Position numbers and translations under genes: made by a program. The notes under the pieces were generated by a model, which was given only the letters and a program-made list of their open reading frames with translations, ran no database searches and had not been told where the DNA came from. A stretch of 64,000 nt of DNA from Candidatus Hydrogenedens sp. (GTDB lineage: Bacteria; Hydrogenedentota; Hydrogenedentia; Hydrogenedentales; Hydrogenedentaceae). Below, in pieces: positions 11,935 to 30,199 of the stretch. Location of the stretch: NCBI GenBank assembly GCA_049968235.1, contig JBMFRC010000001.1, forward strand, positions 357,443 to 421,442, in the 5' to 3' direction. Each line of letters begins with the position of its first letter. Positions within the stretch are counted from its first letter, which is position 1.

Positions 11935-13842
11935 TTATGGCACAAACAGAGTTCGTATTTCTTTTTTTGTTAATCCTGCATAATCTGTAACCACAAATGT
12001 AATTGTATGCGTTCCGGAGGGTAAATCTTCATCTTGTTCCCAACGTAGTGTTCCACGAGGTCCATCATATTCACTCAGTAGCCATTTCTGGTCGCAGAAA
12101 ATTTCTGCCCGTGCTATACCACTTCCTATATCGGAAATAGAAGCAGATATAGGAGGTCGTTTTGTAAGTTGTTTTATGTCTTTATTAATATTAATGGAAA
12201 TATTTGTGATTTGTGGAGGTTCATCATCTCTTATTAATGCGAAAGTGCCCCAATCAGATACAGTGGCAATAACAGAGTCTCCCCTCTTTTGAGAATCTAC
12301 TCTTGTCCATGAAGAACTTGTTTTACGGTATAAATGGATTCGCTCTTGCGGTTGGACATTCTCTCGAATCTGTATTTTCATCTGTACCGCTTCTGCCATA
12401 GGCACATTATACGGTTCTATTTTCCATATATTTGAGGTAATTACCATGCCCTGAGGGACTTTCTGTGCAGAGACAGGGGAGATGGAAAGCCAGAGGATTC
12501 CGTATGGTGTATTGGACGGTATATCTATCTGAAAATCATTCAATACAATGGGATTTATTTTATCTTGTGCCTTAACTGCATATATAGTCTTTTCCCATGG
12601 AGGTATAGATGGATGGGACACTCGAAAAGTATATTTGCCTGATGCAGGAGGTTCCCATGGAAGTTCGTAAATATTATTTGCCCGCTGGATAGGTTTTAGT
12701 AAGATAGACTCCTGTTCTGAGATGCATGTAACCTCAGGTATTTCCTTCGCAGATGTTTGTGCTAATAGAATTTCTAATACAAGGATAGACGGTAAATAGT
12801 GAATAGAAATATCTGTTTTTTCTATCTTCTTGTGTAAATCATTTGCAGGAACATCTGTGATGTATAGAGGAATCTGTGTTTTTTTCCTATCAAAGTCCTC
12901 TACTTCTATCTGGATATGCTCCTCATCTTTTATAGAAATCCAATCTTTTCGAGCCTGCTTGTAATTCTGCGATTGATTTCCCTGCCATTGCCACAATAAC
13001 CAATAAATTGGATTTGAGATGTAAGGATAAAAAGCGACCACAGCATCCCGATAGGTATTGTAATCAATGCGGTCTTGCTGAATAGTCGATAAGATGTTTT
13101 CGCTATTCTTTAATGAAATTCGGTAAGGTCCCAATTTACAATTGCCGGATTCGGGGTCGATGGTTGAAATACCAAATCCTATTGCACCCTGTGCATTAAT
13201 AACGATAGGAAATGTTGTCTTTTCGTTAATAGGTATTTCTAGAGGAAGACAGCGACCATTGATGGTTGCGTGAATACTTCCGGGGATAACAAGTAGAGAT
13301 GTTATTTGAGGTTTATTACGGTCAATCCAGTGAAAACCATATTCCCATGGATTTAGACATGTAATTCCATCTTTTGTGCGAAGTTCAAAGTGTAAGTGTG
13401 GTGCTTTTGTTCCAGACTGACCTGTATATGCGATTATAGTCCCTTTTTTTACAATAAGTTCGTTGTCTTTGAGCATTAGGTCTACGGTGAAGGATTCTTT
13501 CTGATGTTGGACCTTTTGCAGATAAGACTGATATGGTTCTGCAAAAGAAAGTAGGTGTGCATAAATCCCCATAATTCCCGAATGAAATTGAATATATAAC
13601 ACGCGACCATAACCCCAGGGACCGCAACGCATCCTTGTTACATAGCCATCATCTATGGCATAGACCGGTGTACCAACAACAGCATGATAGTCCACGCCCA
13701 TATGAAAACGACCATCTCGATGCTCGCCAAAGGAAGAAGTAGCCATCAAGTCTCCTTTCAAAGGGAGAACAAAAGATTCTTTGGCAGAAAGGGAATTGAT
13801 TATTATAAAAATAAATGCAATAAATGGAGTTATGAACTTCAT
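11935..13842 (-). CDS. M23 family metallopeptidase with signal peptide and C-terminal beta-rich extension
   Basis: HxxxD and HxH motifs (FHMGVDYHAVVGTPVYAIDDGYV ... APHLHFEL). The start ATG overlaps the upstream stop (TAATG). Confidence 0.75.
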   Translation of the reverse strand: MKFITPFIAFIFIIINSLSAKESFVLPLKGDLMATSSFGEHRDGRFHMGVDYHAVVGTPVYAIDDGYVTRMRCGPWGYGRVLYIQFHSGIMGIYAHLLSFAEPYQSYLQKVQHQKESFTVDLMLKDNELIVKKGTIIAYTGQSGTKAPHLHFELRTKDGITCLNPWEYGFHWIDRNKPQITSLLVIPGSIHATINGRCLPLEIPINEKTTFPIVINAQGAIGFGISTIDPESGNCKLGPYRISLKNSENILSTIQQDRIDYNTYRDAVVAFYPYISNPIYWLLWQWQGNQSQNYKQARKDWISIKDEEHIQIEVEDFDRKKTQIPLYITDVPANDLHKKIEKTDISIHYLPSILVLEILLAQTSAKEIPEVTCISEQESILLKPIQRANNIYELPWEPPASGKYTFRVSHPSIPPWEKTIYAVKAQDKINPIVLNDFQIDIPSNTPYGILWLSISPVSAQKVPQGMVITSNIWKIEPYNVPMAEAVQMKIQIRENVQPQERIHLYRKTSSSWTRVDSQKRGDSVIATVSDWGTFALIRDDEPPQITNISININKDIKQLTKRPPISASISDIGSGIARAEIFCDQKWLLSEYDGPRGTLRWEQDEDLPSGTHTITFVVTDYAGLTKKEIRTLFVP

Positions 13843-14993
13843 TACTTCTTATTTTTTTTTGGTGCTGTTGGCTTTGTTGTGGTTTGAGCAGGCACGGATT
13901 TCTTTACTGCTGGGGTTTTATCCTGACGGGATAATTTTTCTAAAATGGGGTCAAAGGCGAGGAATATTTTCACTTTTTCCGAATCATTTAGATAAGGTTT
14001 ACAATATTCAAATATCTTTTCATCCGTTTTTTGTTCAATTAAAATATTTTTAATTTTTTCTTTAACCTGTTCAAAGTTAACCTTCTCTTCTGCTTCGCAT
14101 TCTAACAATTTAAACAAATGCCATCCTAATGAACTTTTTATGACAGGGCTCAGGTCTCCCGGTTTCATGGCAGGTAGAACCTGTGTAAAAAACGGAGGCA
14201 ATGCTTCTGTGGGTATCCATCCCATATCGCCTCCTTTCTGACGGTCCGGTGCTTCGGAAACAGAACGGGCAACCGCGTCAAAACTTTCTCCTGCCTTTAT
14301 TCGTGCTAATGCTTTCTCTACTTCTTTTTGTGTTTCCTGCCATGCTTTTTCATCTGCCGTTTTTGCATTGGGCTTTGGTTGTCGAAATATTTGTTTTAAA
14401 TGCACGCGTGAGGGTTTCATGAAAAGGTCCGGGTTACTTTCATAAAACTTTTTCGCTTCATCATCTGTTACGGTTATCTTATTCTCATTTACAAGGGCTT
14501 GTCTCATCTTTTTTAATATCAGATTTTTACGGGTTCTTTCGCGAAAAGATTCTATTGTCTCTCCTTTGGCTTTTAAGATGTCCTCCATACTGGGAGGGTT
14601 CTTTCCTGCCTTTTTTGTATCCTCCTGAATTTCCTTAATTTGTTCATCCACTGCTTTTTTTACCTCATCCTCAGTTACAGAATATTTTCGTTTTAGAGAT
14701 TCCTGATACAAAATTTCGCGTTGGGCTAAATTGGTAATGCAACGGATGGCAATATGGATACGGTCCTCATCTTTTACATCTTTTTGTCCCGTTCCCGCAA
14801 CATATTCCAATAGTTCCAGATGATACCTCATTAAAAATTCTTCTTTCGATATGGGCGTACCGAGAACCAAAGCCACAGGTCCATCCGGGACAGATTTCTC
14901 TACGATATCCATCCTAGACAGGTCAGGAGCCTGAGCAGGTAAATATGAAATCCAGAGGATAGAGGTAAGCACAAAAAGTAATTTGCGAAACAT
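13842..14993 (-). CDS. SurA/PrsA-like periplasmic chaperone with parvulin-type PPIase domain
   Basis: Signal peptide. Parvulin motif ...DAVARSVSEAPDRQKGGDMGWIP...GWHLFKL. Lys-rich C-terminal tail. Confidence 0.6.
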   Translation of the reverse strand: MFRKLLFVLTSILWISYLPAQAPDLSRMDIVEKSVPDGPVALVLGTPISKEEFLMRYHLELLEYVAGTGQKDVKDEDRIHIAIRCITNLAQREILYQESLKRKYSVTEDEVKKAVDEQIKEIQEDTKKAGKNPPSMEDILKAKGETIESFRERTRKNLILKKMRQALVNENKITVTDDEAKKFYESNPDLFMKPSRVHLKQIFRQPKPNAKTADEKAWQETQKEVEKALARIKAGESFDAVARSVSEAPDRQKGGDMGWIPTEALPPFFTQVLPAMKPGDLSPVIKSSLGWHLFKLLECEAEEKVNFEQVKEKIKNILIEQKTDEKIFEYCKPYLNDSEKVKIFLAFDPILEKLSRQDKTPAVKKSVPAQTTTKPTAPKKNKK

Positions 14994-16548: not shown

Positions 16549-17826
16549 CTATTGATTTTGTTGATGATATTTTTCTTTTCGTGCAGAGTTAAAAAGTTCT
16601 TTCATTTTGTAGTGAACATAGGGCTGTTTTGCCGCATCCTCTTTTCCTTTCGCGTGAGCGACCCATAATTCTAAATCTGTGGGACAATAGAGAACGCTGT
16701 GCAAGTTAACATTGACCATTGCCACTGCTTTGAGGATCTCTAATGCGATATTCTGGTCAATCTTGCCGTAATTCTCTTTTATTCGTGTAGCCATTCCTTT
16801 ATAACGATGGTCATAGGAATTTGAACCATAGGGCATATTTGGTGCATTGGCACAGGTCTGTAAAGAGCGAATGGTTGGATCCATTGCTTCATCGGCACGC
16901 ATAACGGCATTCTCAATGGGAATTGCATATTCGACAGTCTCGCGCGGGTCATTATCTGTAAATATTGCTACATGATGGGCACACGTTTCATAAACCAGGG
17001 CTCGGTTTTCATCTCCATCCGCAATCACATAGTTATAACCCACGGTATGCCGTGCTTCGAGAACAATTTCTGTTACCTGGTCCAAAGTAGATGCTTCTTC
17101 CAATATCTTGCGTAGAAGAAATTCAAGTGGGATACCATCAATGCGTCGGTCTTTATTCGTTGCTCCAATCTGTGCAATGGATACTTTGCGGTTATTCATG
17201 CCGGAGAGAACACCAATTGCACATGCATAACCGACAGAAATAAATGAATTCAATCCTTGTGGTTCATAACAGAAGGTAACCGCTGTATCCTGAATTCCTG
17301 CTTCCATAATCCAATCAAAATTTCTACCATGATACATCTTCCCATCAACAGTAGCTTTACCCCACACGGCAAACGAACTACAACCCCGTTCTGTTATAAC
17401 GGAAACAACATGAATACGACGCAAATCCTGAAGATTTACACCGGCACCATCAGCAATCCCCTCCAGTTCACGAGAATACCGTAATGGAATATGTGGCGAA
17501 CATAATCTCCATGTAACATCCAATATCAACTTTGCTGCAAACTTTGGTAACCCTACTTCTTGCTTCGCCAGTTCTAATAATTCGTCAAATCGTGCAAGAC
17601 TACGGTGAATAACATCTTTCAAGAGAACACCTCGTTGAAAACCCATCTCATACGGGGTCCCTTTCAAGTGAATAACCTTCGTCCCTTCAATTTCCTCCAA
17701 GAAAGCTTTTTGTATATCTACTGCTTCATGGGGACCGCGCGTAGGATAGAGCCAGAAGTAGAATCCAGCACCTAAAACCAGCACAACAAAAAGAATGGGA
17801 AGTATAAAACGAATTTTCTTTTTCAT
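16549..17826 (-). CDS. peptidase C45 / acyl-CoA:6-aminopenicillanic-acid acyltransferase-like Ntn hydrolase, membrane anchored
   Basis: ATG at 17826 with a GGAGAA RBS (the ORF-table start 17853 is a TTG). N-terminal TM helix. Candidate autoprocessing/nucleophile site is ERGCSSFAVWGKATVDGKMYHGRNFDW. Confidence 0.6.
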   Translation of the reverse strand: MKKKIRFILPILFVVLVLGAGFYFWLYPTRGPHEAVDIQKAFLEEIEGTKVIHLKGTPYEMGFQRGVLLKDVIHRSLARFDELLELAKQEVGLPKFAAKLILDVTWRLCSPHIPLRYSRELEGIADGAGVNLQDLRRIHVVSVITERGCSSFAVWGKATVDGKMYHGRNFDWIMEAGIQDTAVTFCYEPQGLNSFISVGYACAIGVLSGMNNRKVSIAQIGATNKDRRIDGIPLEFLLRKILEEASTLDQVTEIVLEARHTVGYNYVIADGDENRALVYETCAHHVAIFTDNDPRETVEYAIPIENAVMRADEAMDPTIRSLQTCANAPNMPYGSNSYDHRYKGMATRIKENYGKIDQNIALEILKAVAMVNVNLHSVLYCPTDLELWVAHAKGKEDAAKQPYVHYKMKELFNSARKEKYHQQNQ

Positions 17827-17979
17827 GGGAAATTCTCCAATAACAATTTTCAAGTGAAATTATGTTTATGTTATTTACATTAAATATTTGAATTCAAAAA
17901 ATATACCAGGATTATTTATTATATCTATATCATCTGACTTTTATTTTCAAAAAAATTTTCATCGGGTTATTATCGTCTA

Positions 17980-20900
17980 TTATACATCCTTAATGATAGA
18001 AATAGGGATTGTTAGATTGTTAGCAATATCGGGAATATCATTTCTATATGTAAAAAGGATTATCTGTTGTCCTTCTCCCAATGCTTTCAATGTTTCCAGA
18101 GATTGAATCAATTGGGGATAGTCATAAGACACAAAAGGGTCATCTAACAATAACGGAATTGGTTCTTTGAGAAAATGAGGAATTTTCATAAGGGCGACAC
18201 GCATAGCAAGATATGCCTGTTCCTGAACAGAGGGATTTGAAGATAATTCTTCCAGAGGTATGGGGTTCTCTGTTTGTGCAGGAATAACTTTCAATGTCAG
18301 GTCCTGCTCTACAAGCACACCTGTATATTTGTACTTCGTTAAATGTATCAGCAAACGACTGACTTCATTTTGTAAAGGCAATGCAATTTTATGATACCGA
18401 TATGTGGATAATTGCTGTAATACCGATATTGCTGATAATACACTCTCCTGTTCGTATCGAAGTATTCTCCATTGAGTTTCATAATAATATTTTTCTTCAG
18501 CAATTTCATTTAACGGTCGCAATTTGTTTGTCAATGTTTCCAACTCTGATTGTAGAATCTGTATATCCTTTTGTATTTGTTCTACTTCGTTTTCTGTTTG
18601 CTCAATAAGTAGTTGCAATTGTTCTTCATCTTCGGCGGGGACTGATGGGACAAAATCTTGTGTTTGTTTTTCCAGTTCCTCTATTGTGCCATCATTCAGC
18701 AATTGTTGAAGTTGCAGTTCGGTTTGTTTAATTCGTGAAAAGATAGCCTGTGCTTCTTCGGCAAGGGCATATTTGTTTTTCCATTCGGAGATACTGCTTA
18801 CTCCTGCCAGTTCTAATATCTCCTGAATCTGTTTCTGGTTTTGAGATAGTTCCTCATCCACTTTTTGCAGTTGTTGATTTAAATCCAATCGCTTTTTCCG
18901 AAGCTCGGATACCTTTGTTTTTAGCCCACAGTACATTTCTTCTGCACGATAATATGAACGGAAAGTATCCTGTGTTAAAGTTTCCCCTGGTTGAAGCAGT
19001 CCGGATTGAACTAAGTCATGTTCTATCCGGCTAAGTATCTCTTTTTGAATTTTATTGTAAATATCCTTTGTATATTCTTCTTTTTTCGTTATAGTGTATG
19101 TTAATTGTTGATATTGGTTCCGGAGGTCCCAGAGCCTGCGGTGGTACATTCTTGCTTTTTCCTGCAATTCAAATACCTTTCGCCGATTTTGCTCTATTTT
19201 ATCCTTATCTTCCAGAGATAGACCTGCTTGTTCAAAAAGATTTTGTATCTCTTGATAAAGGTCGTAGGTTCGGGTCTGGTTAATCGTAAATAGTTCCTCT
19301 GCTTTACGAACCTGTGTAGATAAATCTCCCTCGTTTTTTAACCAGGCACAGTATTCGTCATAAAGCCCCTGCAATTCGCGCACATGCTGTAAATTGGCTT
19401 TATTAAGTAGTGCTGTTATTGGATGCTTATCAATATATTCGAAGGTAACTATTTTCTGAATTTTTTCTTTCAATTGCTTCAGGAAAACATCGATTTCTTT
19501 CAGAGTTCGCTTATTATTGATATAAGAACTCACAAAATATAAAAAAGCCAATCCTACTGCACTGGCAAACCATAGAGATTCCTTTTTATGCATTGTTATA
19601 AACAGATAAATGAGTAAAATATCCAGCAAAAAACAAAGCGTCCCTAATACCAGGTCCACAGGTTGTCGGGAACGAATTTGTAGTTTTAATACCTCTGCTT
19701 CTTCCAATTGTCTTTCTAATTCTTGCTGTTCTTCTTCCGGTTTATCTTTATATTTCAAATAATCATCTACAAGCCCTGCAAAGTCATTTATATCATCAAA
19801 TAATTCCCGATACGGTTGCGTTTGTTGTTGAACACGGGTATATTCTTTTCTCAGTTCATTAAGTTGCGATTCGCTTTTATGTGTTTCCTTCAAAGAACTT
19901 TTATACATATCAATGGCAAAATCGGTTTTGGAGTAGAACATATCATCTTTTTGTATTACCTCTGGAAGTTCCGAAACAATTTTTTCAACTTCCTGAATAT
20001 GTTCGTTTACCTTCTCTCGTTGATTGTGTAGTTCTTTCAACACCTCCTCATTACTGTGAATATGTTTCAAATATTCCTCATATTTATCTTGATAATCCTT
20101 AATATAATCAATAGGGATAAAGGTAGAATGACGCAGTTCTAACTCAAGTTCATTGATTTCCCCAGAGATGTTCTCAATCTCATTTTGCAATTTCTGCTTT
20201 TGCATTTCCGCATGATTGATAGCCATCTCCGTTTGAATAACATATACATTCTGGTCAACTGGAAAATTTCTAAAATTGGAGTATGAAAAGGAACGTCTAG
20301 TCAGTTCATTTAACTTGTCTCGTAAGGCTTTTGCATCGTTCTTTTTTCTCCAGAGCGTATATTGACGGGCATATTGTAATTTATCTTGCAGTTCCTTATA
20401 TTTCTGTTGAAGACTACTCAGTTTCTCCTTATGTTGTTTCAGAAATAATTTCTTCTCGCATATTCTTTCAAAACTTTCCTTTACCTGCTCATATTCCTCT
20501 GATAACCTTTCTATTTGTTCCGATATCAGGTTATAGGGGCGTTTATAGGTACGTTCTGTTCCGATGGATTGCAAATATTCCTGAAAATCGGTAATTATGG
20601 TATTTACAGATTGTTCCGTTGTCCCTGTATCTATCAAACACTGAAGATGTTCCTTTACTCTGTTCCCGTGGGTAAAGGAATTCAAACTGTCTATTGTCTT
20701 CTGTGAAATTACAGACACTCCGGAGAACATTTCACGAGTCAAATCCAGATGTTCATTTATAAAAGCAGGTTCTCCATTTGGATATACAGGAACTGTATCT
20801 GTTATATCATTTGCATCCATCCCTTCATATATTCTTAATGATGGTTCAGGTCCAAATACTCGATGAAGATGTATCAGTTTCCCCGTATTCAGGCGATAAA

Positions 20901-21138
20901 CAATATTTCCCCGATAATCCGAAGTATACCATGGTGTATATTTATAATAATTTTCAGAAAAGGATGCATTTTTCTTTTTGGAAGTTTTTTGCCCAAATAA
21001 CATATCCAGCATAAACTGGAATAATGTATTTTTCCCATTCTCATCTCTGACAAAAATTATCTGGAACCCCTTCTCAAATTCAAGGGGAATCTTTTGTAGT
21101 TTCCCGAAACCATAGATATGTCCCTTTATAAATTCCAT
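17980..21138 (-). CDS. SbcE/YhaN-like SMC-type ATPase (AAA_27-like) with long coiled coil and internal 2-TM hairpin; degenerate Walker A/B
   Basis: N-terminus IKGHIYGFGKLQKIPLEFEKGFQIIFVRDENGKNTLFQFMLDMLFG follows the Rad50/SbcC/YhaN head pattern, but the P-loop reads RDENGKNT. C-terminus has Walker B/D-loop LLLDDPFVSYD. Central LVLGTLCFLLDILLIYLFITMHKKESLWFASAVGLAFLYFVSSYI forms two TM helices within ~700 aa of coiled coil. Confidence 0.6.
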   Translation of the reverse strand: MEFIKGHIYGFGKLQKIPLEFEKGFQIIFVRDENGKNTLFQFMLDMLFGQKTSKKKNASFSENYYKYTPWYTSDYRGNIVYRLNTGKLIHLHRVFGPEPSLRIYEGMDANDITDTVPVYPNGEPAFINEHLDLTREMFSGVSVISQKTIDSLNSFTHGNRVKEHLQCLIDTGTTEQSVNTIITDFQEYLQSIGTERTYKRPYNLISEQIERLSEEYEQVKESFERICEKKLFLKQHKEKLSSLQQKYKELQDKLQYARQYTLWRKKNDAKALRDKLNELTRRSFSYSNFRNFPVDQNVYVIQTEMAINHAEMQKQKLQNEIENISGEINELELELRHSTFIPIDYIKDYQDKYEEYLKHIHSNEEVLKELHNQREKVNEHIQEVEKIVSELPEVIQKDDMFYSKTDFAIDMYKSSLKETHKSESQLNELRKEYTRVQQQTQPYRELFDDINDFAGLVDDYLKYKDKPEEEQQELERQLEEAEVLKLQIRSRQPVDLVLGTLCFLLDILLIYLFITMHKKESLWFASAVGLAFLYFVSSYINNKRTLKEIDVFLKQLKEKIQKIVTFEYIDKHPITALLNKANLQHVRELQGLYDEYCAWLKNEGDLSTQVRKAEELFTINQTRTYDLYQEIQNLFEQAGLSLEDKDKIEQNRRKVFELQEKARMYHRRLWDLRNQYQQLTYTITKKEEYTKDIYNKIQKEILSRIEHDLVQSGLLQPGETLTQDTFRSYYRAEEMYCGLKTKVSELRKKRLDLNQQLQKVDEELSQNQKQIQEILELAGVSSISEWKNKYALAEEAQAIFSRIKQTELQLQQLLNDGTIEELEKQTQDFVPSVPAEDEEQLQLLIEQTENEVEQIQKDIQILQSELETLTNKLRPLNEIAEEKYYYETQWRILRYEQESVLSAISVLQQLSTYRYHKIALPLQNEVSRLLIHLTKYKYTGVLVEQDLTLKVIPAQTENPIPLEELSSNPSVQEQAYLAMRVALMKIPHFLKEPIPLLLDDPFVSYDYPQLIQSLETLKALGEGQQIILFTYRNDIPDIANNLTIPISIIKDV

Positions 21139-22298
21139 TCCGGGGGAACCTCACATGTTTCAACGGTAGGAATTTTTAGATTTGCTCCTCCAGCAATTCT
21201 TGCGGTTAAATGTCGGACTCGTTTTGCAATACTGACAGCGGAGGTATTCGGTGCACATTTTTGTTGTTCCGTTACCTGCTTAAAAAATTCAGATAGAACG
21301 GTAATCTCTCGCAAATCTTCTGCATTTTCAAATCCTTCTATTTCTCCATCAAAACTCCATGTAATAAATAGATTTTCTTCCTGAATAGATATCATTGTTT
21401 CCGGGATGCCATTTAGAAGGGAAGGAGAAATTGTTCCACTGAAACGGAGATGAACAACACAGGGTTTTTGCAAATTTGTCAATTCATTTCGTAACTTCGT
21501 GTGAAGTCCATCTTCATTTGTAAACAAAGACATATCTATATTGATAAGAGCATAAAAATTTTTCTGTAAAGACATATGTTCTACATGGGAAACTTTCCAT
21601 TGATTATCATCCGATTGAAAGCGAATACCTAAAACCCCAAAAGGAGGAGTATCATCCATACTTATAGGGTCGGGAATACCACAACAACACGCCGTCAATT
21701 GCGAAGTATTGTAAAATTGTTTGAAACTGTGTCCTTTCCCTACCCCGATATATGAGATAACATCCGGGACCTTCTCAAACCATCTTGACAATTCCCTTTT
21801 ATCGTTAAACATAGGCAATTCATAAGATAGAAGAATATGATTCCTGCCATCATAGCCAGTCGGTAAATTAAGTTCCGCAAAATCCCCTACCTTCCTATTA
21901 TCTCCTGCTATTGCATAAACAACAATCGGGGTCTTATTCCCTTCCCACCTGTTTGTTGTTTCGGAATTCATTACTATTACATTTTCGGGAAAAGTCTCTA
22001 ATATGTAGGGAGAATATTTTGTGATAGGGTCTGATTCGCCGGGAATAATAATGACTGGAACAGGTTTAATTGCTTCACATCGCTCAAACAGGAATTGAAG
22101 GGTTTGTTCCGTTACATATTCTGCATCCAGCAAATTACCGGTTATGAATAAGGCATCTGCTTTATACTCAAATACTTTACTGACAATTGCATCGAGTAAT
22201 TCCCTCTGTCTTCTTCTTCGTTCTTGACCATAGTGTAGGTTTAAGGAGGAAAAAAAGGGCTTGTCTAAGTATACATTTGCGGTATGTAAGATGAACAT
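21126..22298 (-). CDS. SbcD/Mre11/YhaO-like calcineurin-type phosphoesterase homologue with substituted catalytic motifs (probably inactive)
   Basis: Colinear with SbcD motifs I-III, all substituted: MFILHTANVYLD (DxH becomes NxY), ADALFITGNLLD (GD becomes GN), VIIIPGESD (GNHD becomes GESD). Overlaps the downstream ATPase gene by 13 nt. Confidence 0.55.
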   Translation of the reverse strand: MFILHTANVYLDKPFFSSLNLHYGQERRRRQRELLDAIVSKVFEYKADALFITGNLLDAEYVTEQTLQFLFERCEAIKPVPVIIIPGESDPITKYSPYILETFPENVIVMNSETTNRWEGNKTPIVVYAIAGDNRKVGDFAELNLPTGYDGRNHILLSYELPMFNDKRELSRWFEKVPDVISYIGVGKGHSFKQFYNTSQLTACCCGIPDPISMDDTPPFGVLGIRFQSDDNQWKVSHVEHMSLQKNFYALINIDMSLFTNEDGLHTKLRNELTNLQKPCVVHLRFSGTISPSLLNGIPETMISIQEENLFITWSFDGEIEGFENAEDLREITVLSEFFKQVTEQQKCAPNTSAVSIAKRVRHLTARIAGGANLKIPTVETCEVPPEWNL

Positions 22299-22323: not shown

Positions 22324-23274
22324 TTAAGAATATATTATATCAATTTGCGGTTCCTGCTTTGCTATGGCATCAGTAAAACCCCTATATCGCCAATATCGGA
22401 ATACTCGGCGATACATTCGGAGAAGTAATTTAGAATCTTCTGGAAGTTTTAAGCAAAAACGGTGGTAGTAAGGAATAAGCAGGGCATTGATAATTCGTGT
22501 AGTATAAGGAAAATAAAGTTTATAATTAACGACGATATGATAGTCATTAGGAAACAATCGCAGGTAACAGCCCATTGAATAACCCCGACGGTAATGATAT
22601 CTGCACATATCCAGATATGAACTTCCTTTCCAAAGCCAACAAAGAGCCTGATTGTCAATATGAAGTTTACAACCTACTTGCGAGAGCCTTTTTACCAATT
22701 CCACTTCTGCGAATTCCGGGAAATAAAATGATTTGTTAAATGTTCCACTTTGAAGAATAAGGTCACGAGGGATACTCATGTTATAGAGAGAGAAATGGGA
22801 AGGAGTTATTTGTGTAATTTCCTCCATTGAAGGTGGTTCATCCTCTGGCAAGAACCAGGGTGTTATGCTTTTTGAAGAGAGTCGCGGATGCAAAAGTAAC
22901 GCGCCTCCGATACAGGCTTTCCCCTCATATGCGTATTGGAGCTGGACATGCCTTTGGATCCAACTATTACTGGGCAATACCTCCGGTTGACTGCACAATA
23001 CCCACTTTCCTTTCGCCTCGTGCAATGCTAAGTCCCATGCTTGTATCATTGACTCTCCCCCATGTGGAATATAACGAACAATCAACGGAGACCCTTTTGA
23101 CAAAGAAGCAACTGTCTTTCGCGTTTCTTCTGAGGAATTCGTTTCAACAATAATCCACTCAAATTGTGCTAAAGGATAATCCTGATGTTCCAGATGAAAA
23201 AACCATGGGGATAAACACCACGACAAATTATTTCCTACTAACAGCACGCTTGCATGGATTTCATTCGTTGACAT
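22324..23274 (-). CDS. glycosyltransferase family 2-like protein (GT-A fold; DxD position reads QPE)
   Basis: Pattern SVLLVGNN...FEWIIVETNSSEETRK...GGESMIQAWDLALHEAKGKWVL loosely follows GT2 N-terminal conservation. Confidence 0.35.
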   Translation of the reverse strand: MSTNEIHASVLLVGNNLSWCLSPWFFHLEHQDYPLAQFEWIIVETNSSEETRKTVASLSKGSPLIVRYIPHGGESMIQAWDLALHEAKGKWVLCSQPEVLPSNSWIQRHVQLQYAYEGKACIGGALLLHPRLSSKSITPWFLPEDEPPSMEEITQITPSHFSLYNMSIPRDLILQSGTFNKSFYFPEFAEVELVKRLSQVGCKLHIDNQALCWLWKGSSYLDMCRYHYRRGYSMGCYLRLFPNDYHIVVNYKLYFPYTTRIINALLIPYYHRFCLKLPEDSKLLLRMYRRVFRYWRYRGFTDAIAKQEPQIDIIYS

Positions 23275-23383
23275 TCCGATACTTTCTTCCCTTTTTGTTA
23301 TTATAAAATATTAACATGATAATATACTGAAAAGGGAATTTTTATTTCTATATATAGTTTTCCAGAGATAAGGCTCATCATAT

Positions 23384-25666
23384 ATGTCGCAAATAGCAAG
23401 TAAGGTTTCGGAGTTCCGACGCTTCCCTTTTTGGGGAACATTACTCGGGGGTATTTTCCTGTTACTTTTGATACGTATTTATTGGGACCCTATGCTGGCA
23501 GCCAGTTTAGGTAAAAGCGATAAAGAAGATATATGGGCAAACAAACAATATTCCGTTTGGGGTCCTATATGGAAATATGGGTTTGACCGTATCGGGAAGG
23601 GAGAAATTCCGCACTGGAATCCGTATCAACTTTGTGGACAACCCTACCTTGTGGACATACGTACATCTTTGTTTCAACCCTTGCATATACTATTTTGGCG
23701 AATGGACTTTGCACATGCCTATCAATGGTATATTTTCCTTTCCATGTCCCTTTTAGGTATCGGTTTTTTAATATGGGGTAGAATTTTAGAGATTCCTTAT
23801 CCTGCTTTAATACCCGGACTTGTATCTGTGGTATTTTCGGGACCTGGAATATGTGTTCAAATGTCGTTACCTTTGTTAAGTGGTTCTGTGTGGCTAATTT
23901 TTCTACTAAGTGGTATGGTATATTTCTTTGAAAACCATACACCACGCAGTTTTCTCATCTTATTGTTTATATGGACCGCATTGATACTATCTGGAAGTAT
24001 TGAATGCATATTTGCAGGTCTCCTTATGCTCATCCTTTTCCCTTTTATCTTTCGCAGTTTCCCGACACTTTCCATAGAAAGGAAATCTTTATCGGTAATT
24101 TTCAAAATTATAGTTGTTTTGATACTGGGAATAATGGTAAGTGCATTTGCATGGTTTCCTTTTATATCATGGCAGATATATACAGATGTACACTGGAGCC
24201 AATTTCTTAGTTTTCCTTTATCGGCTCATTTTCCCGAAACATTCTCTCTCGCTTTTTCTCAAATCTTTCTCCCTATATGGGCATGGGACCTTCCAAAATT
24301 ACCCGTTTTATATCCCGGATTAATATGTTTCGTATTTATTTTTCCCGCATTTTTTGACCGTGAACTTCGTTCTATCGTATGGTTTCATGGGCTAATCTTG
24401 TTATTTTTCTTCCTTCTATTTTTTATAAACCTTAACCTGGCACGAATACTTCAACAGGGAATGTTAATTCTTGTTGCAATTTCTTTCTCAACATTGGCAG
24501 GGATAGGCTTTCACCGATTGCTATTAAAAGGTCGGGATTTAAGTTCTCCATATGTATGGGTTTCGGGTATCTTTGTTTTTTTATTGCTATTAGCCCTCAT
24601 TTTAATCGCTAATCCATGGATAAAGGGTGTATCCATTTTATTACTCTTTCTCCTTATCCCTGCAACAATCATCCGTATACCCAAAATAAATTCTATCCTT
24701 TGCATCTTAATCGCTCTGTTAAGTTTCATCGAATTGTATTATTTACTTCGTCCTTTTCTACCTGAAAGTTATATCCCCGTTATTGAAAAAAAAGATGTTT
24801 ATTCCGAATTCGTCAGACAGCTCCGCTATCAAACAGGCACAGGAAGAGGTCTGATTGTCCCGGAATCGAACTCAATACTCTGGTCGGAAAACCTCGGGAT
24901 GTATTATCACTGGCAATTGGTGAATGGAACAGAACTACCCACAGATAAATATGCACAATTATGGATGAAATCCCTTTCAAATCAAACACAGGAAAAAACA
25001 GAACTATTAACAAATCCGTTAACAACAATCAGTGGTGTTCAGTGGGCATTTACTACAAATATGTCAATAGATAACGATAAGGGGAAAAATTTAAAAACCT
25101 GGCGAAAAATGGAGCAAATCTACTTTGTTGATATTTATGAAAATACCCAACCTATACCGCGATGTTTCTGGGTACCCCACTACCGAAAAGTCTCTTCTAT
25201 GGAAGAGGTCTTAAATATTTTGACACATAGTAACTTCTCTCCATTTAAAGAATGCGTGATACAGTCAGATGTTCCGATTTCCTACGACAAAAAAACTGCT
25301 GATATACTTCCCTTAACACCGGAACAGGATGCAGATTCTTCCGCAAAGGTAGTAACTACCAATATCCAGGAGGAAAACTCTGAATATATCTCTATACAGA
25401 TAAAAGCACCTAAGGAAGGTTTCTTAGTGCTTTTAGACACATACAACCCGGGCTGGAAAGCATTTGTCGATGGAGAACTTACTGAAATTTTTAGAACAAA
25501 CGGTATATTTAGAGGTGTTCCCATACCGGGAGGGGTACATCAGGTTGTATTCAAATATACAAGCCCTGGCTGGGACGCAGGGAGAATAATTACATTCGTG
25601 GCTATTCTTTTAACTCTATCAACACTACTCATCGAAAAAGTTTTCAATAAAAGCCAAACCGCATAA
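23384..25666 (+). CDS. YfhO-like polytopic membrane protein (putative GT-C-type glycosyl/arabinosyl transferase)
   Basis: 760 aa with more than 12 TM in the N-terminal 450 aa. First-loop motif DIWANKQYSVWGPIWKYGFDRIGKGEIPHWNPYQLCGQPYLVD is typical of YfhO-like proteins. C-terminal extracytoplasmic domain. Confidence 0.5.
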   Translation: MSQIASKVSEFRRFPFWGTLLGGIFLLLLIRIYWDPMLAASLGKSDKEDIWANKQYSVWGPIWKYGFDRIGKGEIPHWNPYQLCGQPYLVDIRTSLFQPLHILFWRMDFAHAYQWYIFLSMSLLGIGFLIWGRILEIPYPALIPGLVSVVFSGPGICVQMSLPLLSGSVWLIFLLSGMVYFFENHTPRSFLILLFIWTALILSGSIECIFAGLLMLILFPFIFRSFPTLSIERKSLSVIFKIIVVLILGIMVSAFAWFPFISWQIYTDVHWSQFLSFPLSAHFPETFSLAFSQIFLPIWAWDLPKLPVLYPGLICFVFIFPAFFDRELRSIVWFHGLILLFFFLLFFINLNLARILQQGMLILVAISFSTLAGIGFHRLLLKGRDLSSPYVWVSGIFVFLLLLALILIANPWIKGVSILLLFLLIPATIIRIPKINSILCILIALLSFIELYYLLRPFLPESYIPVIEKKDVYSEFVRQLRYQTGTGRGLIVPESNSILWSENLGMYYHWQLVNGTELPTDKYAQLWMKSLSNQTQEKTELLTNPLTTISGVQWAFTTNMSIDNDKGKNLKTWRKMEQIYFVDIYENTQPIPRCFWVPHYRKVSSMEEVLNILTHSNFSPFKECVIQSDVPISYDKKTADILPLTPEQDADSSAKVVTTNIQEENSEYISIQIKAPKEGFLVLLDTYNPGWKAFVDGELTEIFRTNGIFRGVPIPGGVHQVVFKYTSPGWDAGRIITFVAILLTLSTLLIEKVFNKSQTA

Positions 25667-27963: not shown

Positions 27964-28701
27964 TTAGGTATTCCACTGAAACTGTTCTCCTAAATATACT
28001 TTTCGAACGCGCTCATCAGCAGATACCTCTTCAGGGGTTCCGGTGCATATAACTTGCCCTTCGCTAATGATATAGGCACGGTCTGTTATCGATAAGGTAT
28101 CCCGCACATTATGGTCGGTAATCAAAATACCGATACCTCGCTCTTTCAATTCCTTCACCATAATTTGTAATTCGCTAATAGCAATTGGGTCTATTCCCGC
28201 AAAGGGCTCGTCTAAAAGAAATATTTTAGGCTCTGTAATTAATGCGCGAGCAATTTCTGTTTTTCTACGCTCTCCACCTGAAAGGGTATAGGCATATTGG
28301 TTTGATAAATGTTCTATATTCATCTCTTTCAGAAGTTGGTGAGCTTTCTCTTTATGTTCTGCACGACTACCGGGTAAAAATTCCAATATTGCTAATAGAT
28401 TTTGTTCCACAGTTAAATTACGGAATACAGATGGTTCTTGAGCCAGATATGCAATCCCTGCACGGGCTCTACGATACATCGGGAAACGGGTAATATCCTG
28501 CCCCATAAAAAATACCTTTCCATCATCCGGCTTAAATAGCCCCACTACCATGTTAAATGTTGTTGTTTTTCCAGCACCATTGGGTCCCAATAATCCTACT
28601 ATCTCACCTTTATTTAAACATAGTGAAACATTGCGGACAACTACGCGTTTCCGAAATGATTTGACTAACCCTTGAGTTTCCAATAACTTTTCAGAAGACA
28701 T
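27964..28701 (-). CDS. lptB: LPS export ABC transporter ATP-binding protein LptB
   Basis: Walker [10 protein letters not shown], signature [15 protein letters not shown], Walker [17 protein letters not shown] at 28701 with a GGGAGAGG RBS. Confidence 0.85.
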
Positions 28702-28712
28702 ATACCTCTCCC

Positions 28713-29618
28713 TCATAGAGGTTTTAGCACATCAGGGAAGGCACATTGAAGCAGTAACCGGTTTAGTCGCACCTGTTCTTCTGCTGTTAATGTTCCCTTA
28801 TTTAAGAACTCTTTTGCCGTTTCCGGTAAAGTTGTCTTTGCCCATGCTTCCTTATTATAGAAATCCGGTTTCCGTAATAATCTATTTATCTGTTTGACCA
28901 AATCCTGTTTTCTCTTTAGAATCAAATCATTAGGAGTGGACAAAAATTGACTTCTCGCATCCCCATCAAATTTACTTAACAAGTATTTGCCGGGAGTCAT
29001 TTCGCTGGATTGCCCCTGTCTTTTTAATTCTGCAATAAAACCATTCCAATCTATAACATCAGTTTCCGTAAGAAGAGACAACCCTGTCTCTATACCACCT
29101 TCAGAACCAACTCCTCCCTGTAGCGGTATCATATCCGCTTGTAGATTTTCGATGTCAATCGTATTGTTCTTAAAATCCAGAACAATTTTGGAACCTTTTA
29201 ATCCCTGTGCTTTGGGACTATCTAACATAGGATTCCCTGTGAATTCTACCATTTCCTTTTTAAAGTCCCAGACTGCTTTCTCTGCTGTTAATTTACCTTC
29301 AGGATGTTCAAGATATACCTTGCCTTCCATACGAATCAGTACCGGTGAATTTCGACCTTCTTCCCATTCAAAAGTCATTCTATCCGCTTTGATAGGCATA
29401 TTAGGGGTATTGGGTTCTTGAGATAGTAAAACGATACTTACACCTCCGCTCATCTCACGTATACTCATTCCTTGATTTAGTGTCCCTTTCAATTTCCCAA
29501 CTTTCTCAATTTTCATGGAGGAATATTTACCTAAACTTATATTCTCCTGAGCATATACTTTTACATATATAGCGATAAACAATAATAAGATGAATAATAC
29601 AGGCATTAGTTTTTTCAT
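28713..29618 (-). CDS. lptA: LptA/OstA-family periplasmic LPS transport protein
   Basis: Signal peptide plus OstA-like beta-jellyroll repeats ([13 protein letters not shown] ... [21 protein letters not shown]). Sits between lptC-like and lptB. Confidence 0.6.
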
Positions 29619-30199
29619 GTTGTATTCCTCAATATCAACGGGACCTGTCCGGATACTTCTTCCAGTTCAAACTCTTTAGTGTCAGGATAAATAATTAAAT
29701 TTTCCGCATCCAGATGTAAATCTGTGCCCTGCACTGCAATTTTCCCATGTGTCCAGATGCGGGCAGGTTCTGTTTCTGTTCGATTACTCCATTCAATCCC
29801 ATCCGTATTAAATAAAATATTATCCATTTGAGCCTCTACATTTCCCACAAGAGAGGCTTTATTCATTTTTTCAAAAACTCCTTCTCTTGCAGAAATTTTG
29901 ATATGTTCTTTACCGGATTGAATATCATAAATGACTGCATGTACATCTTCAACTTTCCATGTATTTTCATCAATGACAGCAAACTTTTCCGCATGCAACC
30001 ATAAGGTAGGTTTGCGTGCTTCACCTATGGTAGGACGTGGGTCATGATGATACAAATCCACAGACGAGACATTCATATCATCTATGGATTGCTTTTGAGG
30101 AGGAGTTGTCTCCGCAGTAGGTAGGGTTGTAGAGTTTTTTTTGCCACAAGAAAATAGTAGAAGTGTGCAAATTGTAAATACCGTCATCCATCTCATCAC
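29615..30199 (-). CDS. lptC: LptC-like lipoprotein
   Basis: 194 aa. Lipoprotein signal (LLLFSCG). Position is immediately upstream of lptA-lptB, with 4-nt overlaps. Confidence 0.45.
   Translation of the reverse strand: MMRWMTVFTICTLLLFSCGKKNSTTLPTAETTPPQKQSIDDMNVSSVDLYHHDPRPTIGEARKPTLWLHAEKFAVIDENTWKVEDVHAVIYDIQSGKEHIKISAREGVFEKMNKASLVGNVEAQMDNILFNTDGIEWSNRTETEPARIWTHGKIAVQGTDLHLDAENLIIYPDTKEFELEEVSGQVPLILRNTT

What the first reader, a model, noticed from the sequence alone, without database searches (positions are those of the whole stretch)
17980..22298. SbcEF/YhaON-like pair: membrane-anchored SMC-type ATPase with degenerate Walker motifs plus a catalytically degenerate Mre11/SbcD-like phosphoesterase
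Two overlapping minus-strand genes (13-nt overlap) are arranged nuclease-homologue first, ATPase second, as in B. subtilis yhaO-yhaN (sbcF-sbcE) and in sbcDC.

The 390-aa upstream protein is colinear with SbcD/Mre11 motifs I-III, but nearly every metal-binding residue is replaced. HTSDWHLG becomes HTANVYLD. AGDxFD becomes TGNLLD. AGNHD becomes PGESD. Motif V keeps only one His (GKGHS).

The 1052-aa partner has the Rad50/SbcC/YhaN head pattern, but its P-loop reads RDENGKNT instead of GxNxxGK[ST]. Its Walker B reads LLLDDP, with the catalytic Glu replaced by Asp. Its ~700-aa coiled coil is interrupted by a two-helix hydrophobic hairpin (LVLGTLCFLLDILLIYLFITM ... WFASAVGLAFLYFVSSYI) where a zinc hook would normally sit, so the complex is predicted to be membrane tethered.

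A Rad50/Mre11-type machine in which both enzymatic centres look inactivated, flanked by envelope genes (GT2-like, YfhO-like, C45 hydrolase), suggests a repurposed structural or sensor role. Membrane tethering, membrane remodelling or defence are possibilities rather than DNA-end processing.
Basis: partly seen in the sequence, partly recalled or inferred. Interest (0 to 1): 0.65.

Follow-up and report, generated by a model that had tools for sequence, protein, structure and literature searches.

The report
Catalytically dead membrane-anchored Mre11–Rad50-like pair
Two overlapping genes in an uncultured Candidatus Hydrogenedens bacterium encode a membrane-anchored relative of the Mre11–Rad50 DNA-break repair machine; both its nuclease site and its ATP-binding site have decayed, yet selection still preserves both proteins, so they have probably taken on a non-enzymatic structural role.

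Summary
Window 21126-22298(-) encodes a 390-aa protein with an Mre11/SbcD fold. Seven of its eight metal-ligand positions are substituted. Window 17980-21138(-) overlaps it by 13 nt and encodes a 1052-aa SMC/Rad50-type protein. That protein has a degenerate Walker A (VRDENGKNT), a lost signature motif (SSNPSV for LSQGT), no CxxC hook, and a two-helix hydrophobic hairpin at the coiled-coil apex.

Comparative data add three points.
- The hairpin, and in Hydrogenedentota the Asp-Asp Walker B, are family traits of YhaN/SbcE-type (Pfam AAA_27) proteins. They are not local oddities.
- Decay was stepwise. Other Hydrogenedentota, Acidobacteriota and Clostridia have both enzymes intact. Several Hydrogenedentota lineages have a dead nuclease with an intact ATPase. 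Only one monophyletic Ca. Hydrogenedens subclade, which includes H. terephthalaticus and this window, has also lost the ATP-binding motifs.
- Both genes are under purifying selection (dN/dS about 0.10-0.18), like their neighbours.

The GT2 glycosyltransferase-like gene just upstream has also lost its DD/DxD motifs. It travels with the pair across the genus, next to a divergent YfhO-like gene.

Best reading: a pseudoenzyme version of the SbcEF/YhaON module that acts as a non-catalytic membrane-anchored scaffold. Its actual function is unknown. It is a new variant of a known but poorly understood family.

The parts
21126..22298 (-). 390-aa Mre11/SbcD-fold (YhaO/SbcF-type) pseudo-phosphoesterase
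   Evidence: ORF. Pfam Metallophos is sub-threshold at 16.6 bits against a cut-off of 21.5. Family profile versus PDB hits Mre11/SbcD only, E=9e-17. AF2 pLDDT 84.7; Foldseek top 50 are all Mre11/SbcD. dN/dS 0.12-0.18 against the two closest orthologues compared.
22263..22286 (-). Motif I remnant HTANVYLD (canonical H-x-x-D-x-H-L-D); Asp replaced by Asn8, His replaced by Tyr10
22125..22142 (-). Motif II remnant TGNLLD (canonical GDLxD/E); Asp replaced by Asn55
22026..22043 (-). Motif III remnant PGESDP (canonical PGNHDP); Asn-His replaced by Glu-Ser
21819..21842 (-). Motif IV region NHILLSYE (canonical hhhHG/T); His replaced by Tyr159
21726..21746 (-). Motif V remnant GVGKGHS (canonical LGHxH); first His replaced by Lys188. 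The second His is kept here but is N/Y/Q in orthologues.
21126..21138 (-). 13-nt overlap (ATGGAATTTATAA) between the stop of the nuclease-like gene and the start of the ATPase-like gene; suggests translational coupling
   Evidence: The same 13-nt overlap is seen in loci L011-L013 and L014-L018 (coordinates).
17980..21138 (-). 1052-aa SMC/Rad50-type (YhaN/SbcE-type, AAA_27) pseudo-ATPase with a central membrane hairpin
   Evidence: ORF. AAA_27 is sub-threshold at 17.9 bits against 22. Orthologues pass AAA_27 and AAA_23. Profile hits Rad50 at E=2e-5. AF2 architecture; Foldseek hits Smc5/6, condensin, Rad50, MukB, JetC and LmuB. dN/dS 0.10-0.12.
21025..21051 (-). Degenerate Walker A VRDENGKNT (orthologues with intact motif: GLNESGKTT)
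19519..19653 (-). Two-helix hydrophobic hairpin (aa 496-516 and 522-540, loop HKKES) at the coiled-coil apex; predicted membrane anchor
   Evidence: Hydropathy. Central hydrophobic segments are present in 118 of the 120 homologues examined. The AF2 model turns at residues 517-518. No CxxC.
18211..18243 (-). Destroyed ABC signature motif SSNPSVQEQAY (intact relatives: LSQGTLEQLY / LSxGTIDQLY)
18133..18153 (-). Walker B LLLDDPF (Asp-Asp; shared by all Hydrogenedentota members, including those with otherwise intact motifs)
18037..18066 (-). H-loop region QIILFTYRND. The Rad50 His position is Arg in every locus in the motif table, and varies (T, H, R) among the homologues.
22324..23274 (-). 316-aa GT2-like gene, 25 nt upstream on the same strand; probably the first gene of the operon. 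Its DD and DxD motifs have decayed (IVETNSSEE at nt 23125-23151; LCSQPEV at nt 22978-22998).
   Evidence: dN/dS 0.07.
23384..25666 (+). 760-aa YfhO-like polytopic membrane protein, divergently transcribed; part of the four-gene block conserved in the genus

Best explanation
This is a YhaO/YhaN (SbcF/SbcE)-type module: an Mre11/SbcD-fold phosphoesterase homologue, translationally coupled to an SMC/Rad50-type ABC protein. The two long coiled-coil arms of that protein meet in a hydrophobic helical hairpin instead of a zinc hook.

In the lineage of this window the module has become a pair of pseudoenzymes, in two steps.
1. The nuclease metal site was lost first. The loss is seen in several Hydrogenedentota lineages.
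2. The nucleotide-binding motifs of the ATPase (Walker A and signature) were lost later. This happened once, in the Ca. Hydrogenedens subclade that contains H. terephthalaticus.

Both proteins are still full-length, co-translated and under purifying selection, and the head domains are the best conserved parts.

The most likely mode of action (inferred, not shown) is non-catalytic. A nuclease-like dimer bound to the two heads would form a static assembly held at the cytoplasmic face of the inner membrane by the hairpin. The roughly 300-390-residue arms would act as a spacer or tether. The assembly probably works together with the co-operonic GT2-like protein, which has also lost its catalytic acidic motifs, and perhaps with the neighbouring YfhO-like membrane protein.

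Shown: homology, fold, motif loss, order of losses, selection, synteny. Inferred: loss of activity, membrane insertion, complex formation, scaffold role.
For: Homology and fold.

Motif loss in the nuclease-like protein.
- One of eight ligand positions is canonical in the window protein.
- All 12 Hydrogenedens orthologues are degenerate.
- 47 of 47 sampled non-Hydrogenedens homologues are canonical.

Stepwise pattern across GTDB species representatives.
- L014-L016: both dead.
- L017-L019: nuclease dead, ATPase motifs intact.
- L023: nuclease partly dead, ATPase intact.
- L020-L022, L024, Acidobacteriota L025-26 and Clostridia: both intact.

Single origin and relaxed constraint.
- The ATPase-dead clade is monophyletic in an NJ tree.
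- Column entropy at Walker A (0.88) and signature (1.40) exceeds the head mean (0.66-0.68) in the dead clade.
- In the much more divergent intact clade those motifs are nearly invariant: 0.19 and 0.44 against a head mean of 1.0.

Purifying selection.
- dN/dS is 0.10-0.12 for the ATPase, with the heads at 0.08-0.16.
- dN/dS is 0.12-0.18 for the nuclease-like gene against the two closest orthologues (0.26 for the one more distant pair with unsaturated dS).
- The neighbours GT2 (0.07) and YfhO (0.10-0.14) are comparable.

Coupling: the 13-nt overlap is conserved.

Hairpin: and the description of the hydrophobic, insoluble central domain of B. subtilis SbcE (PMC2811018).

Synteny.
- The block YfhO | GT2, Mre11-like, ATPase is kept in the window, L005-7, L011-L013 and L014-L018, with different outer flanks.
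- A GT2 homologue sits immediately upstream of the pair also in the distant Hydrogenedentota loci L020 and L023.
- GT2 motif decay.
Against: - No biochemical or structural test of activity was possible.
- The Walker A Lys is retained (Arg in P0006), a Thr or Ser follows one position later, the Walker B Asp is mostly retained, and a Q-loop-like Gln is present. Weak nucleotide binding therefore cannot be excluded.
- Membrane insertion rests on hydropathy and on an AF2 model of moderate confidence (pLDDT 72.9, pTM 0.32). A re-entrant rather than spanning hairpin is possible, and the short loop carries two Lys.
- Formation of a nuclease-like/ATPase complex is inferred from gene overlap and family precedent only.
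- The link to GT2 and YfhO is synteny only. It is absent from L019, L021, L022 and L024.
- Even the active family (SbcEF) has a poorly defined function, so 'scaffold' says what the pair cannot do rather than what it does.
Confidence: 0.6

Rival explanations
1. A regulatory pseudoenzyme. The dead pair survives because it modulates, sequesters or localises an active paralogue encoded elsewhere in the genome (a canonical SbcCD or a second YhaON-type complex) or its DNA substrate, as many pseudoenzymes do.
For: A related Hydrogenedentota contig (L002) carries a second Metallophos gene followed by a gene of about 1000 aa on the opposite strand, next to its intact YhaON pair. Paralogous Mre11/Rad50-type modules therefore exist in the phylum. 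The head domains are the most constrained parts, as expected for retained protein-protein interfaces.
Against: No paralogue was seen in the 64-kb window, and the rest of the genome could not be examined. Conserved linkage to GT2 and YfhO rather than to DNA-repair genes does not fit a DNA-repair regulator.
Confidence: 0.15
2. Still an active DNA-end processing machine that uses non-canonical residues, for example an Asn/Tyr/Glu/Lys-lined site in the nuclease and a Lys-Asn-Thr P-loop in the ATPase.
For: The substituted positions in the nuclease-like protein are themselves conserved within the genus (Asn8, Asn55, Asp90, Gly187). The Walker A Lys and the Walker B Asp are mostly kept.
Against: Seven of eight metal ligands are gone, including the motif III His. 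Walker A and signature positions vary freely among close relatives (VRDENGKNT, FRDDNEKNT, VKEEQDRNS, VRDKNEKDT; SSNPSV, PQNEVI, STKQSV). Their entropy is above the head average. That is the signature of relaxed constraint, not of a new active site.
Confidence: 0.1
3. An anti-phage defence module of the SMC-like kind (Lamassu/LmuB-like or Wadjet-like).
For: PADLOC LmuB profile PDLC03859 gives E=1.2e-13 over residues 534-1042, and there are weak JetC hits. Foldseek lists LmuB and JetC among the architectural matches. In L011 a Mu-like prophage lies next to the block.
Against: The matches cover the coiled coil and the C-terminal head, regions shared by SMC-type proteins generally. The nuclease-like protein has no PADLOC hit. 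No LmuA/LmuC or JetA/B/D-like neighbours are present. The block is syntenic and vertically conserved across a genus and is under purifying selection, unlike typical defence islands. A defence effector without nuclease or ATPase activity is hard to rationalise.
Confidence: 0.05
4. Decaying pseudogenes or mis-called ORFs with no function.
For: Catalytic motifs are lost in three adjacent genes. Pfam hits are sub-threshold.
Against: The 1052- and 390-codon frames are uninterrupted in at least eight species-level lineages. dN/dS is 0.10-0.18, equal to neighbouring genes, and the overlap is conserved.
Confidence: 0.02

Closest known systems
B. subtilis SbcF-SbcE (YhaO-YhaN), the SMC-like DSB-repair and competence pair (Krishnamurthy et al. 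2010, PMC2811018)
   Same: The gene order is the same: SbcD-like gene first, then the SMC-like gene. The heads are AAA_27/AAA_23-type. There are two coiled-coil arms of about 300 aa or more. A central domain with a hydrophobic stretch replaces the CxxC zinc hook.
   Different: Here 7 of 8 nuclease metal ligands, the Walker A motif and the signature motif are lost. The host is a diderm of the candidate phylum Hydrogenedentota. The module is linked to a GT2-like and a YfhO-like gene rather than to yhaM. No direct sequence comparison with B. subtilis YhaN/YhaO could be made with the available tools.
Mre11-Rad50 / SbcCD
   Same: The fold of both subunits, the colinear phosphoesterase motifs, the ABC head split by an antiparallel coiled coil, and the operon arrangement.
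   Different: There is no zinc hook; a hydrophobic hairpin sits in its place. The catalytic residues of both subunits are missing. Walker B is Asp-Asp rather than Asp-Glu.
Intact YhaON-type pairs of other Hydrogenedentota, Acidobacteriota and Clostridia (L020-L022, L024-L028; P0013-P0120)
   Same: They are orthologous or homologous over the full length (21-30% identity for P0012 and P0013), with the same architecture, including the hairpin and the upstream nuclease gene.
   Different: Those proteins keep HxxDxHLD, GD, GNHD and GHxH in the nuclease, and GxNExGK[ST] and LSxGT in the ATPase. The window clade does not.
Lamassu LmuB / Wadjet JetC (SMC-like defence ATPases)
   Same: SMC-like architecture; there are sequence-profile and fold matches.
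   Different: The partner genes are absent, and the locus lies in a conserved core-genome context. The similarity is confined to regions common to SMC-type proteins.

Membership tests
SbcE/YhaN-type SMC-like proteins (Pfam AAA_27 heads) | N-terminal AAA_27/AAA_23 head domain above the Pfam threshold | tested here: inconclusive
   The window protein scores 17.9 bits against a cut-off of 22, so it is sub-threshold because the P-loop has decayed. Full-length orthologues pass: P0009 33.8 bits, P0012 39.3 and P0013 52.9 for AAA_27. Orthology comes from the full-length alignment.
SbcE/YhaN-type SMC-like proteins (Pfam AAA_27 heads) | Two long coiled-coil arms separated by a central, partly hydrophobic domain; no CxxC hook | tested here: met
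   AF2 helices span 202-516 and 519-933, with the turn at 517-518. Hydropathy peaks are 2.65 and 1.67. Central hydrophobic segments are present in 118 of the 120 homologues examined. No CxxC. This matches the description in PMC2811018.
SbcE/YhaN-type SMC-like proteins (Pfam AAA_27 heads) | SbcD/Mre11-like gene immediately upstream (yhaO/sbcF) | tested here: met
SbcE/YhaN-type SMC-like proteins (Pfam AAA_27 heads) | Recognisable Walker A, signature and Walker B motifs (a functional ABC ATPase) | tested here: not met
   Walker A is VRDENGKNT and the signature is SSNPSV. Walker B (LLLDDPF) is retained.
SbcE/YhaN-type SMC-like proteins (Pfam AAA_27 heads) | Direct sequence similarity to B. subtilis YhaN | not testable with these tools
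The supplement of PMC2811018 is not held and the afdb50 library was unavailable.
Mre11/SbcD nucleases (calcineurin-like phosphoesterases) | Mre11 phosphoesterase plus capping-domain fold | tested here: met
   AF2 pLDDT 84.7. The Foldseek top 50 are all Mre11/SbcD, with E down to 1.4e-11 and target-normalised TM-score up to 0.71. The profile hits only Mre11/SbcD.
Mre11/SbcD nucleases (calcineurin-like phosphoesterases) | Conserved metal-ligand and catalytic residues of motifs I-V (D, H, D, N, H, H, H, H) | tested here: not met
   One of eight is retained in the window protein. All 12 Hydrogenedens orthologues are degenerate.
Mre11/SbcD nucleases (calcineurin-like phosphoesterases) | Pfam Metallophos above the gathering threshold | tested here: not met
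   16.6 bits against 21.5. The intact partner of P0013 scores 51.3 bits.
Rad50/SbcC | CxxC zinc hook at the coiled-coil apex | tested here: not met
   There is no CxxC anywhere in the protein. The apex is hydrophobic.
Lamassu (LmuB) / Wadjet (JetC) defence systems | Cognate partner genes (LmuA effector and LmuC; JetA/B/D) in the same locus | tested here: not met
   The neighbours are GT2-like, YfhO-like and C45/AAT-like. The nuclease-like protein has no PADLOC hit.
GT2 glycosyltransferases (upstream gene) | Acidic DD and DxD motifs of the GT-A fold | tested here: not met
   The window gene reads IVETNSSEE and LCSQPEV, against VVDDGSTD and FLCDDE in the L023 homologue. Pfam scores are 25.7 and 84.8 bits respectively. 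The motif assignment is by alignment only.

The most novel reading that the evidence does not exclude
In Ca. Hydrogenedens an entire three-gene operon (GT2-like, Mre11-like, Rad50-like with a membrane hairpin) has been converted from enzymes into a non-catalytic, membrane-anchored structural assembly. It would be a bacterial coiled-coil tether or spacer derived from a DNA-repair machine. It would work at the inner membrane, possibly organising the YfhO-type envelope glycosylation machinery or tethering the nucleoid or other structures to the membrane. Related nuclease-dead versions elsewhere in Hydrogenedentota would be intermediate stages.
Probability: 0.25. Interest if true: 0.7.

Novelty: new variant of a known kind. 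Interest (0 to 1): 0.5.

Why it matters
Mre11-Rad50-type complexes are defined by coupling ATP hydrolysis to nuclease action. Here selection appears to maintain such a complex after both activities have gone, so the architecture itself (heads, long arms, apex anchor) seems to have a selectable function.

The graded series found here gives a natural experiment for dissecting what each activity contributes in the almost unstudied SbcEF/YhaON family:
- both enzymes intact;
- nuclease dead, ATPase intact;
- both dead.

The data also draw attention to the hydrophobic apex hairpin. It is present in essentially all family members examined, including those of Firmicutes, so this branch of SMC-like proteins is probably membrane-anchored, something the 2010 characterisation did not recognise.

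The practical impact is limited: the organism is uncultured and the function is unknown.

Tried and rejected
- Single-sequence Pfam, NCBIfam and PDB searches gave only sub-threshold hits for both window proteins. Family profiles were needed.
- The PADLOC LmuB and JetC hits were treated as generic SMC similarity and rejected as evidence for defence.
- Promoter and terminator scans were no better than shuffles and gave no operon boundaries.
- I tried to find the taxonomy and gene context of other degenerate YhaO-like clusters (P0235, P0251 and others). Alignments A5 and A6 were too diverse for the search for related loci. The metagenome scan with P0235 found nothing. The scan with P0251 returned only distant, intact Firmicutes-like loci. 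Cluster names identified only P0257 as Hydrogenedentota.
- A PDB sequence search with the GT2-like protein found nothing.
- Literature searches for membrane-anchored or pseudo-enzymatic Mre11/Rad50-like or AAA_27 proteins found nothing relevant. Papers from 2023 and 2025 still list SbcE/SbcEF only as a recombination or SMC-like DNA-repair factor.
- The afdb50 fold library was unavailable, and the supplement with the B. subtilis alignments is not held.
- The pseudogene hypothesis was rejected on dN/dS.

Full report
**1. What is in the window.**

Two minus-strand ORFs occupy exactly the reported coordinates:
- 21126-22298, 390 aa;
- 17980-21138, 1052 aa.

They overlap by 13 nt. The sequence ATGGAATTTATAA contains both the ATPase start codon and the nuclease-like stop codon.

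A 316-aa GT2-like gene (22324-23274) lies 25 nt upstream on the same strand. A 760-aa YfhO-like gene (23384-25666) is divergent. A C45/AAT-like gene (16549-17853) follows 126 nt downstream.

An identical copy of the 390-aa protein is recorded from a Candidatus Hydrogenedens sp. MAG (P0121). The nearest named species is Ca. Hydrogenedens terephthalaticus, whose ATPase is 80% identical. The lineage is phylum Hydrogenedentota, FCB group.

**2. Identity of the 390-aa protein.**

On its own it gives only sub-threshold matches:
- Pfam Metallophos 16.6 bits against a cut-off of 21.5;
- SbcD_Staph E=5.7e-4;
- T. maritima Mre11 E=0.01.

Profiles do better.
- A profile of the 12 Hydrogenedens orthologues alone lists only SbcD/Mre11 chains in the PDB, with E about 1e-3.
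- Adding the partners of more distant ATPase orthologues raises this to E=9e-17, again with Mre11/SbcD only.

An AF2 model built on a 58-sequence alignment has pLDDT 84.7 and pTM 0.83. Its 50 best PDB matches are all Mre11/SbcD (E down to 1.4e-11). The protein is therefore an Mre11/SbcD-fold protein.

**3. Its active site is gone.**

| Motif | Window protein | Canonical |
|---|---|---|
| I | HTANVYLD | HxxDxHLD |
| II | TGNLLD | GDLxD/E |
| III | PGESDP | PGNHDP |
| IV | LLSY | hhHG |
| V | GVGKGHS | LGHxH |

Only one of the eight ligand or catalytic positions is canonical. That one, the second His of motif V, is N, Y or Q in orthologues.

All 12 Hydrogenedens orthologues share the degeneracy. 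In contrast, 47 of 47 sampled non-Hydrogenedens homologues from the word-indexed search are fully canonical.

An exhaustive HMM search of 1.84 billion cluster representatives with the degenerate-only profile found 2589 relatives. Among the best 150:
- 94 are fully canonical;
- about 30 have four or fewer of the eight positions canonical.

One of the degenerate ones, P0257, is annotated as Hydrogenedentota. Nuclease-dead YhaO-like proteins are therefore not unique to this genus.

**4. Identity of the 1052-aa protein.**

Alone it gives AAA_27 at 17.9 bits (cut-off 22) over residues 8-62. It has full-length orthologues down to 21-30% identity (P0012, P0013). P0009, P0012 and P0013 pass the Pfam AAA_27 threshold, and P0009 and P0012 also pass AAA_23.

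The family profile hits P. furiosus Rad50 (E=2e-5). The alignment pairs the family's signature, Walker B and H-loop regions with those of Rad50.

The AF2 model (pLDDT 72.9) shows:
- beta-rich N- and C-terminal head halves;
- nearly continuous helices 202-516 and 519-933;
- a turn at residues 517-518.

Foldseek returns Smc5/6, condensin, Rad50, MukB, JetC and LmuB. The arms have a coiled-coil-like composition, and the protein contains no CxxC.

**5. The hairpin.**

Residues 496-514 and 522-540 give Kyte-Doolittle 19-residue means of 2.65 and 1.67. These are the only segments of the protein above 1.6, and they flank the modelled apex turn.

Central hydrophobic segments occur in 118 of the 120 best homologues. 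In 97 of them there are two such segments together with a canonical Walker A. This includes the 620-800-aa Clostridia proteins.

This matches the 'unique central domain' of B. subtilis SbcE/YhaN. That domain has a hydrophobic first half, is insoluble, and lacks a CxxC (PMC2811018).

Whether it spans the membrane or is re-entrant cannot be decided here.

**6. ATPase motifs.**

| Motif | Window and its clade | Relatives with intact motifs |
|---|---|---|
| Walker A | VRDENGKNT; also FRDDNEKNT, VKDLSGKNT, VKEEQDRNS, VRDKNEKDT | G[LP]NE[SQ]GKTT (remaining Hydrogenedentota); GKNESGKS (Clostridia) |
| Signature | SSNPSV, PQNEVI, STKQSV and others | LS[QK]GT[LV][ED]Q |
| Walker B | LLLDDPF; drifts further in the window clade (LLLEDPF, IILNDPF, LLLDNPF) | Asp-Asp in all Hydrogenedentota and in several Clostridia; Asp-Glu in Acidobacteriota and many Clostridia |
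| H-loop | QIILFTYRND | The Rad50 His position is Arg in the Hydrogenedentota orthologues and in every locus of the table; it varies (T, H, R) among the homologues |

The members that lack Walker A form one clade in an NJ tree. Entropy comparison:
- In that clade, Walker A (0.88) and signature (1.40) are more variable than the head average (0.66-0.68).
- In the far more divergent intact clade, they are almost invariant (0.19 and 0.44, against 1.0 for the heads).

This is the pattern expected if constraint on nucleotide binding was released once and the rest of the head stayed constrained.

**7. Order of events.**

Pairing each ATPase with its upstream gene gives four grades:
- Both intact: four other Hydrogenedentota (L020-L022, L024), Acidobacteriota (L025-26) and Clostridia.
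- Nuclease partly dead, ATPase intact: L023.
- Nuclease dead, ATPase intact: L019 (= P0012), L017, L018, and the loci of P0009 and P0011.
- Both dead: the window, L014 (H. terephthalaticus), L015 and L016.

The nuclease site therefore decayed first and the ATP site later.

**8. Selection.**

Nei-Gojobori dN/dS between the window and two orthologues of the doubly dead clade:

| Gene | dN/dS |
|---|---|
| ATPase | 0.12 and 0.10 |
| Nuclease-like | 0.12 and 0.18 |
| GT2-like | 0.07 (one comparison; the other saturated) |
| YfhO-like | 0.14 and 0.12 |

Within the ATPase, the heads are among the most constrained regions (0.08-0.16) and the hairpin is the least constrained (0.23-0.31).

These are maintained proteins, not pseudogenes.

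**9. Context.**

The block YfhO(-) | GT2, Mre11-like, ATPase(+) recurs with different outer flanks in every Ca. Hydrogenedens locus examined: the window, L005-7, L011-13 and L014-18.

A GT2 homologue (25-27% identity) also sits directly upstream of the pair in two distant Hydrogenedentota contigs. One of them, L020, has both enzymes intact. The GT2 linkage is therefore older than the genus. It is absent from L019, L021, L022 and L024.

The L023 GT2 is canonical: VVDDGSTD and FLCDDE, Pfam 84.8 bits. The Hydrogenedens proteins read IVETNSSEE and LCSQPEV, vary at those positions, and score 25.7 bits in the window protein (28.0 and 37.5 in the two other orthologues scanned). A third enzyme of the operon thus appears to have lost its catalytic acidic motifs. 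This rests on alignment only.

**10. Interpretation.**

The most economical mechanism is a non-catalytic, membrane-anchored coiled-coil assembly retained for a structural or tethering role, plausibly together with the GT2-like protein. I put about 0.6 on this reading overall. Confidence is higher for the identity and for the loss of catalysis than for the scaffold role itself.

Rivals:
- a regulatory partner or decoy for an active paralogue (0.15);
- residual non-canonical activity (0.1);
- anti-phage defence (0.05);
- pseudogenes (0.02).

The defence idea rests only on generic SMC-type similarity to LmuB and JetC. It is contradicted by the core-genome-like synteny and by the absence of partner genes.

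**11. Novelty.**

The literature held here still treats SbcEF only as a recombination or SMC-like DNA-repair factor. I found no description of membrane anchoring or of catalytically dead members.

I classify this as a new variant of a known, poorly characterised kind. Interest is moderate (0.5). The stepwise conversion of a whole operon into pseudoenzymes is unusual and gives a usable natural series. However, the organism is uncultured and no positive function can be assigned.

Noticed in passing
window 22324-23274 (-); motif regions nt 23125-23151 and 22978-22998: The co-operonic GT2-like gene has lost the canonical acidic motifs. It reads IVETNSSEE and LCSQPEV where a homologue in another Hydrogenedentota contig (L023:13-1068) has VVDDGSTD and FLCDDE. 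Pfam scores are 25.7 and 84.8 bits. It is nevertheless under strong purifying selection (dN/dS 0.07) and has a highly conserved C-terminal half (YHYRRGYSMGC, PYYH, YRRVFRYWRxRGF) that no Pfam model covers.
   Followed up: partly
window 22324-25666; loci L005-7, L011-L018, L020, L023: The four-gene block YfhO-like | GT2-like, Mre11-like, ATPase-like is conserved throughout Ca. Hydrogenedens despite different outer flanks. A GT2 homologue directly precedes the pair also in two distant Hydrogenedentota contigs, one of which has fully intact enzymes.
   Followed up: partly
proteins P0235, P0237, P0240, P0251, P0253, P0257, P0262, P0273, P0276, P0281, P0288, P0293, P0308, P0312, P0334: About 30 of the 150 best representative clusters of YhaO-like proteins in the 1.84-billion-protein library have four or fewer of the eight metal-ligand positions canonical. 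The recurring pattern is HTADxLLD / AGNLFD / PGPRDP / LGG. Only P0257 could be assigned, to Hydrogenedentota. The partners and taxonomy of the rest are unknown.
   Followed up: partly
L002 11425-15269 (-): A related Hydrogenedentota contig carries a second Metallophos gene (302 aa) followed by a gene of more than 1000 aa on the opposite strand, near its intact YhaON-type pair. This may be a paralogous SbcCD-like module.
   Followed up: no
L011 662-5149: In a related genome, Mu-like prophage genes (Portal_Mu, Phage_capsid_4) abut the YfhO-like gene where the window has unrelated genes. This marks a rearrangement or insertion point at the edge of the conserved block.
   Followed up: no
window 16549-17853 (-): The downstream C45/AAT-like gene is 93% identical in protein to its H. 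terephthalaticus counterpart (L014). That is much more conserved than the ATPase-like (80%) and nuclease-like (about 75%) genes next to it. It is absent downstream of the pair in L012, L016, L017 and L018.
   Followed up: no
window 11935-14993 (-): An M23 peptidase with C-terminal Ig-like domains (635 aa) and a SurA-like PPIase (383 aa) abut. The start of the first and the end of the second share nucleotide 13842, which suggests a coupled envelope-maintenance pair.
   Followed up: no
window 27964-30199 (-): An ABC ATPase ORF (250 aa) is followed by two ORFs of 301 and 194 aa that overlap it head-to-tail by 4 nt each. By eye this resembles an LptB/LptA/LptC-type cluster, consistent with a diderm envelope. 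It was not tested with any tool.
   Followed up: no
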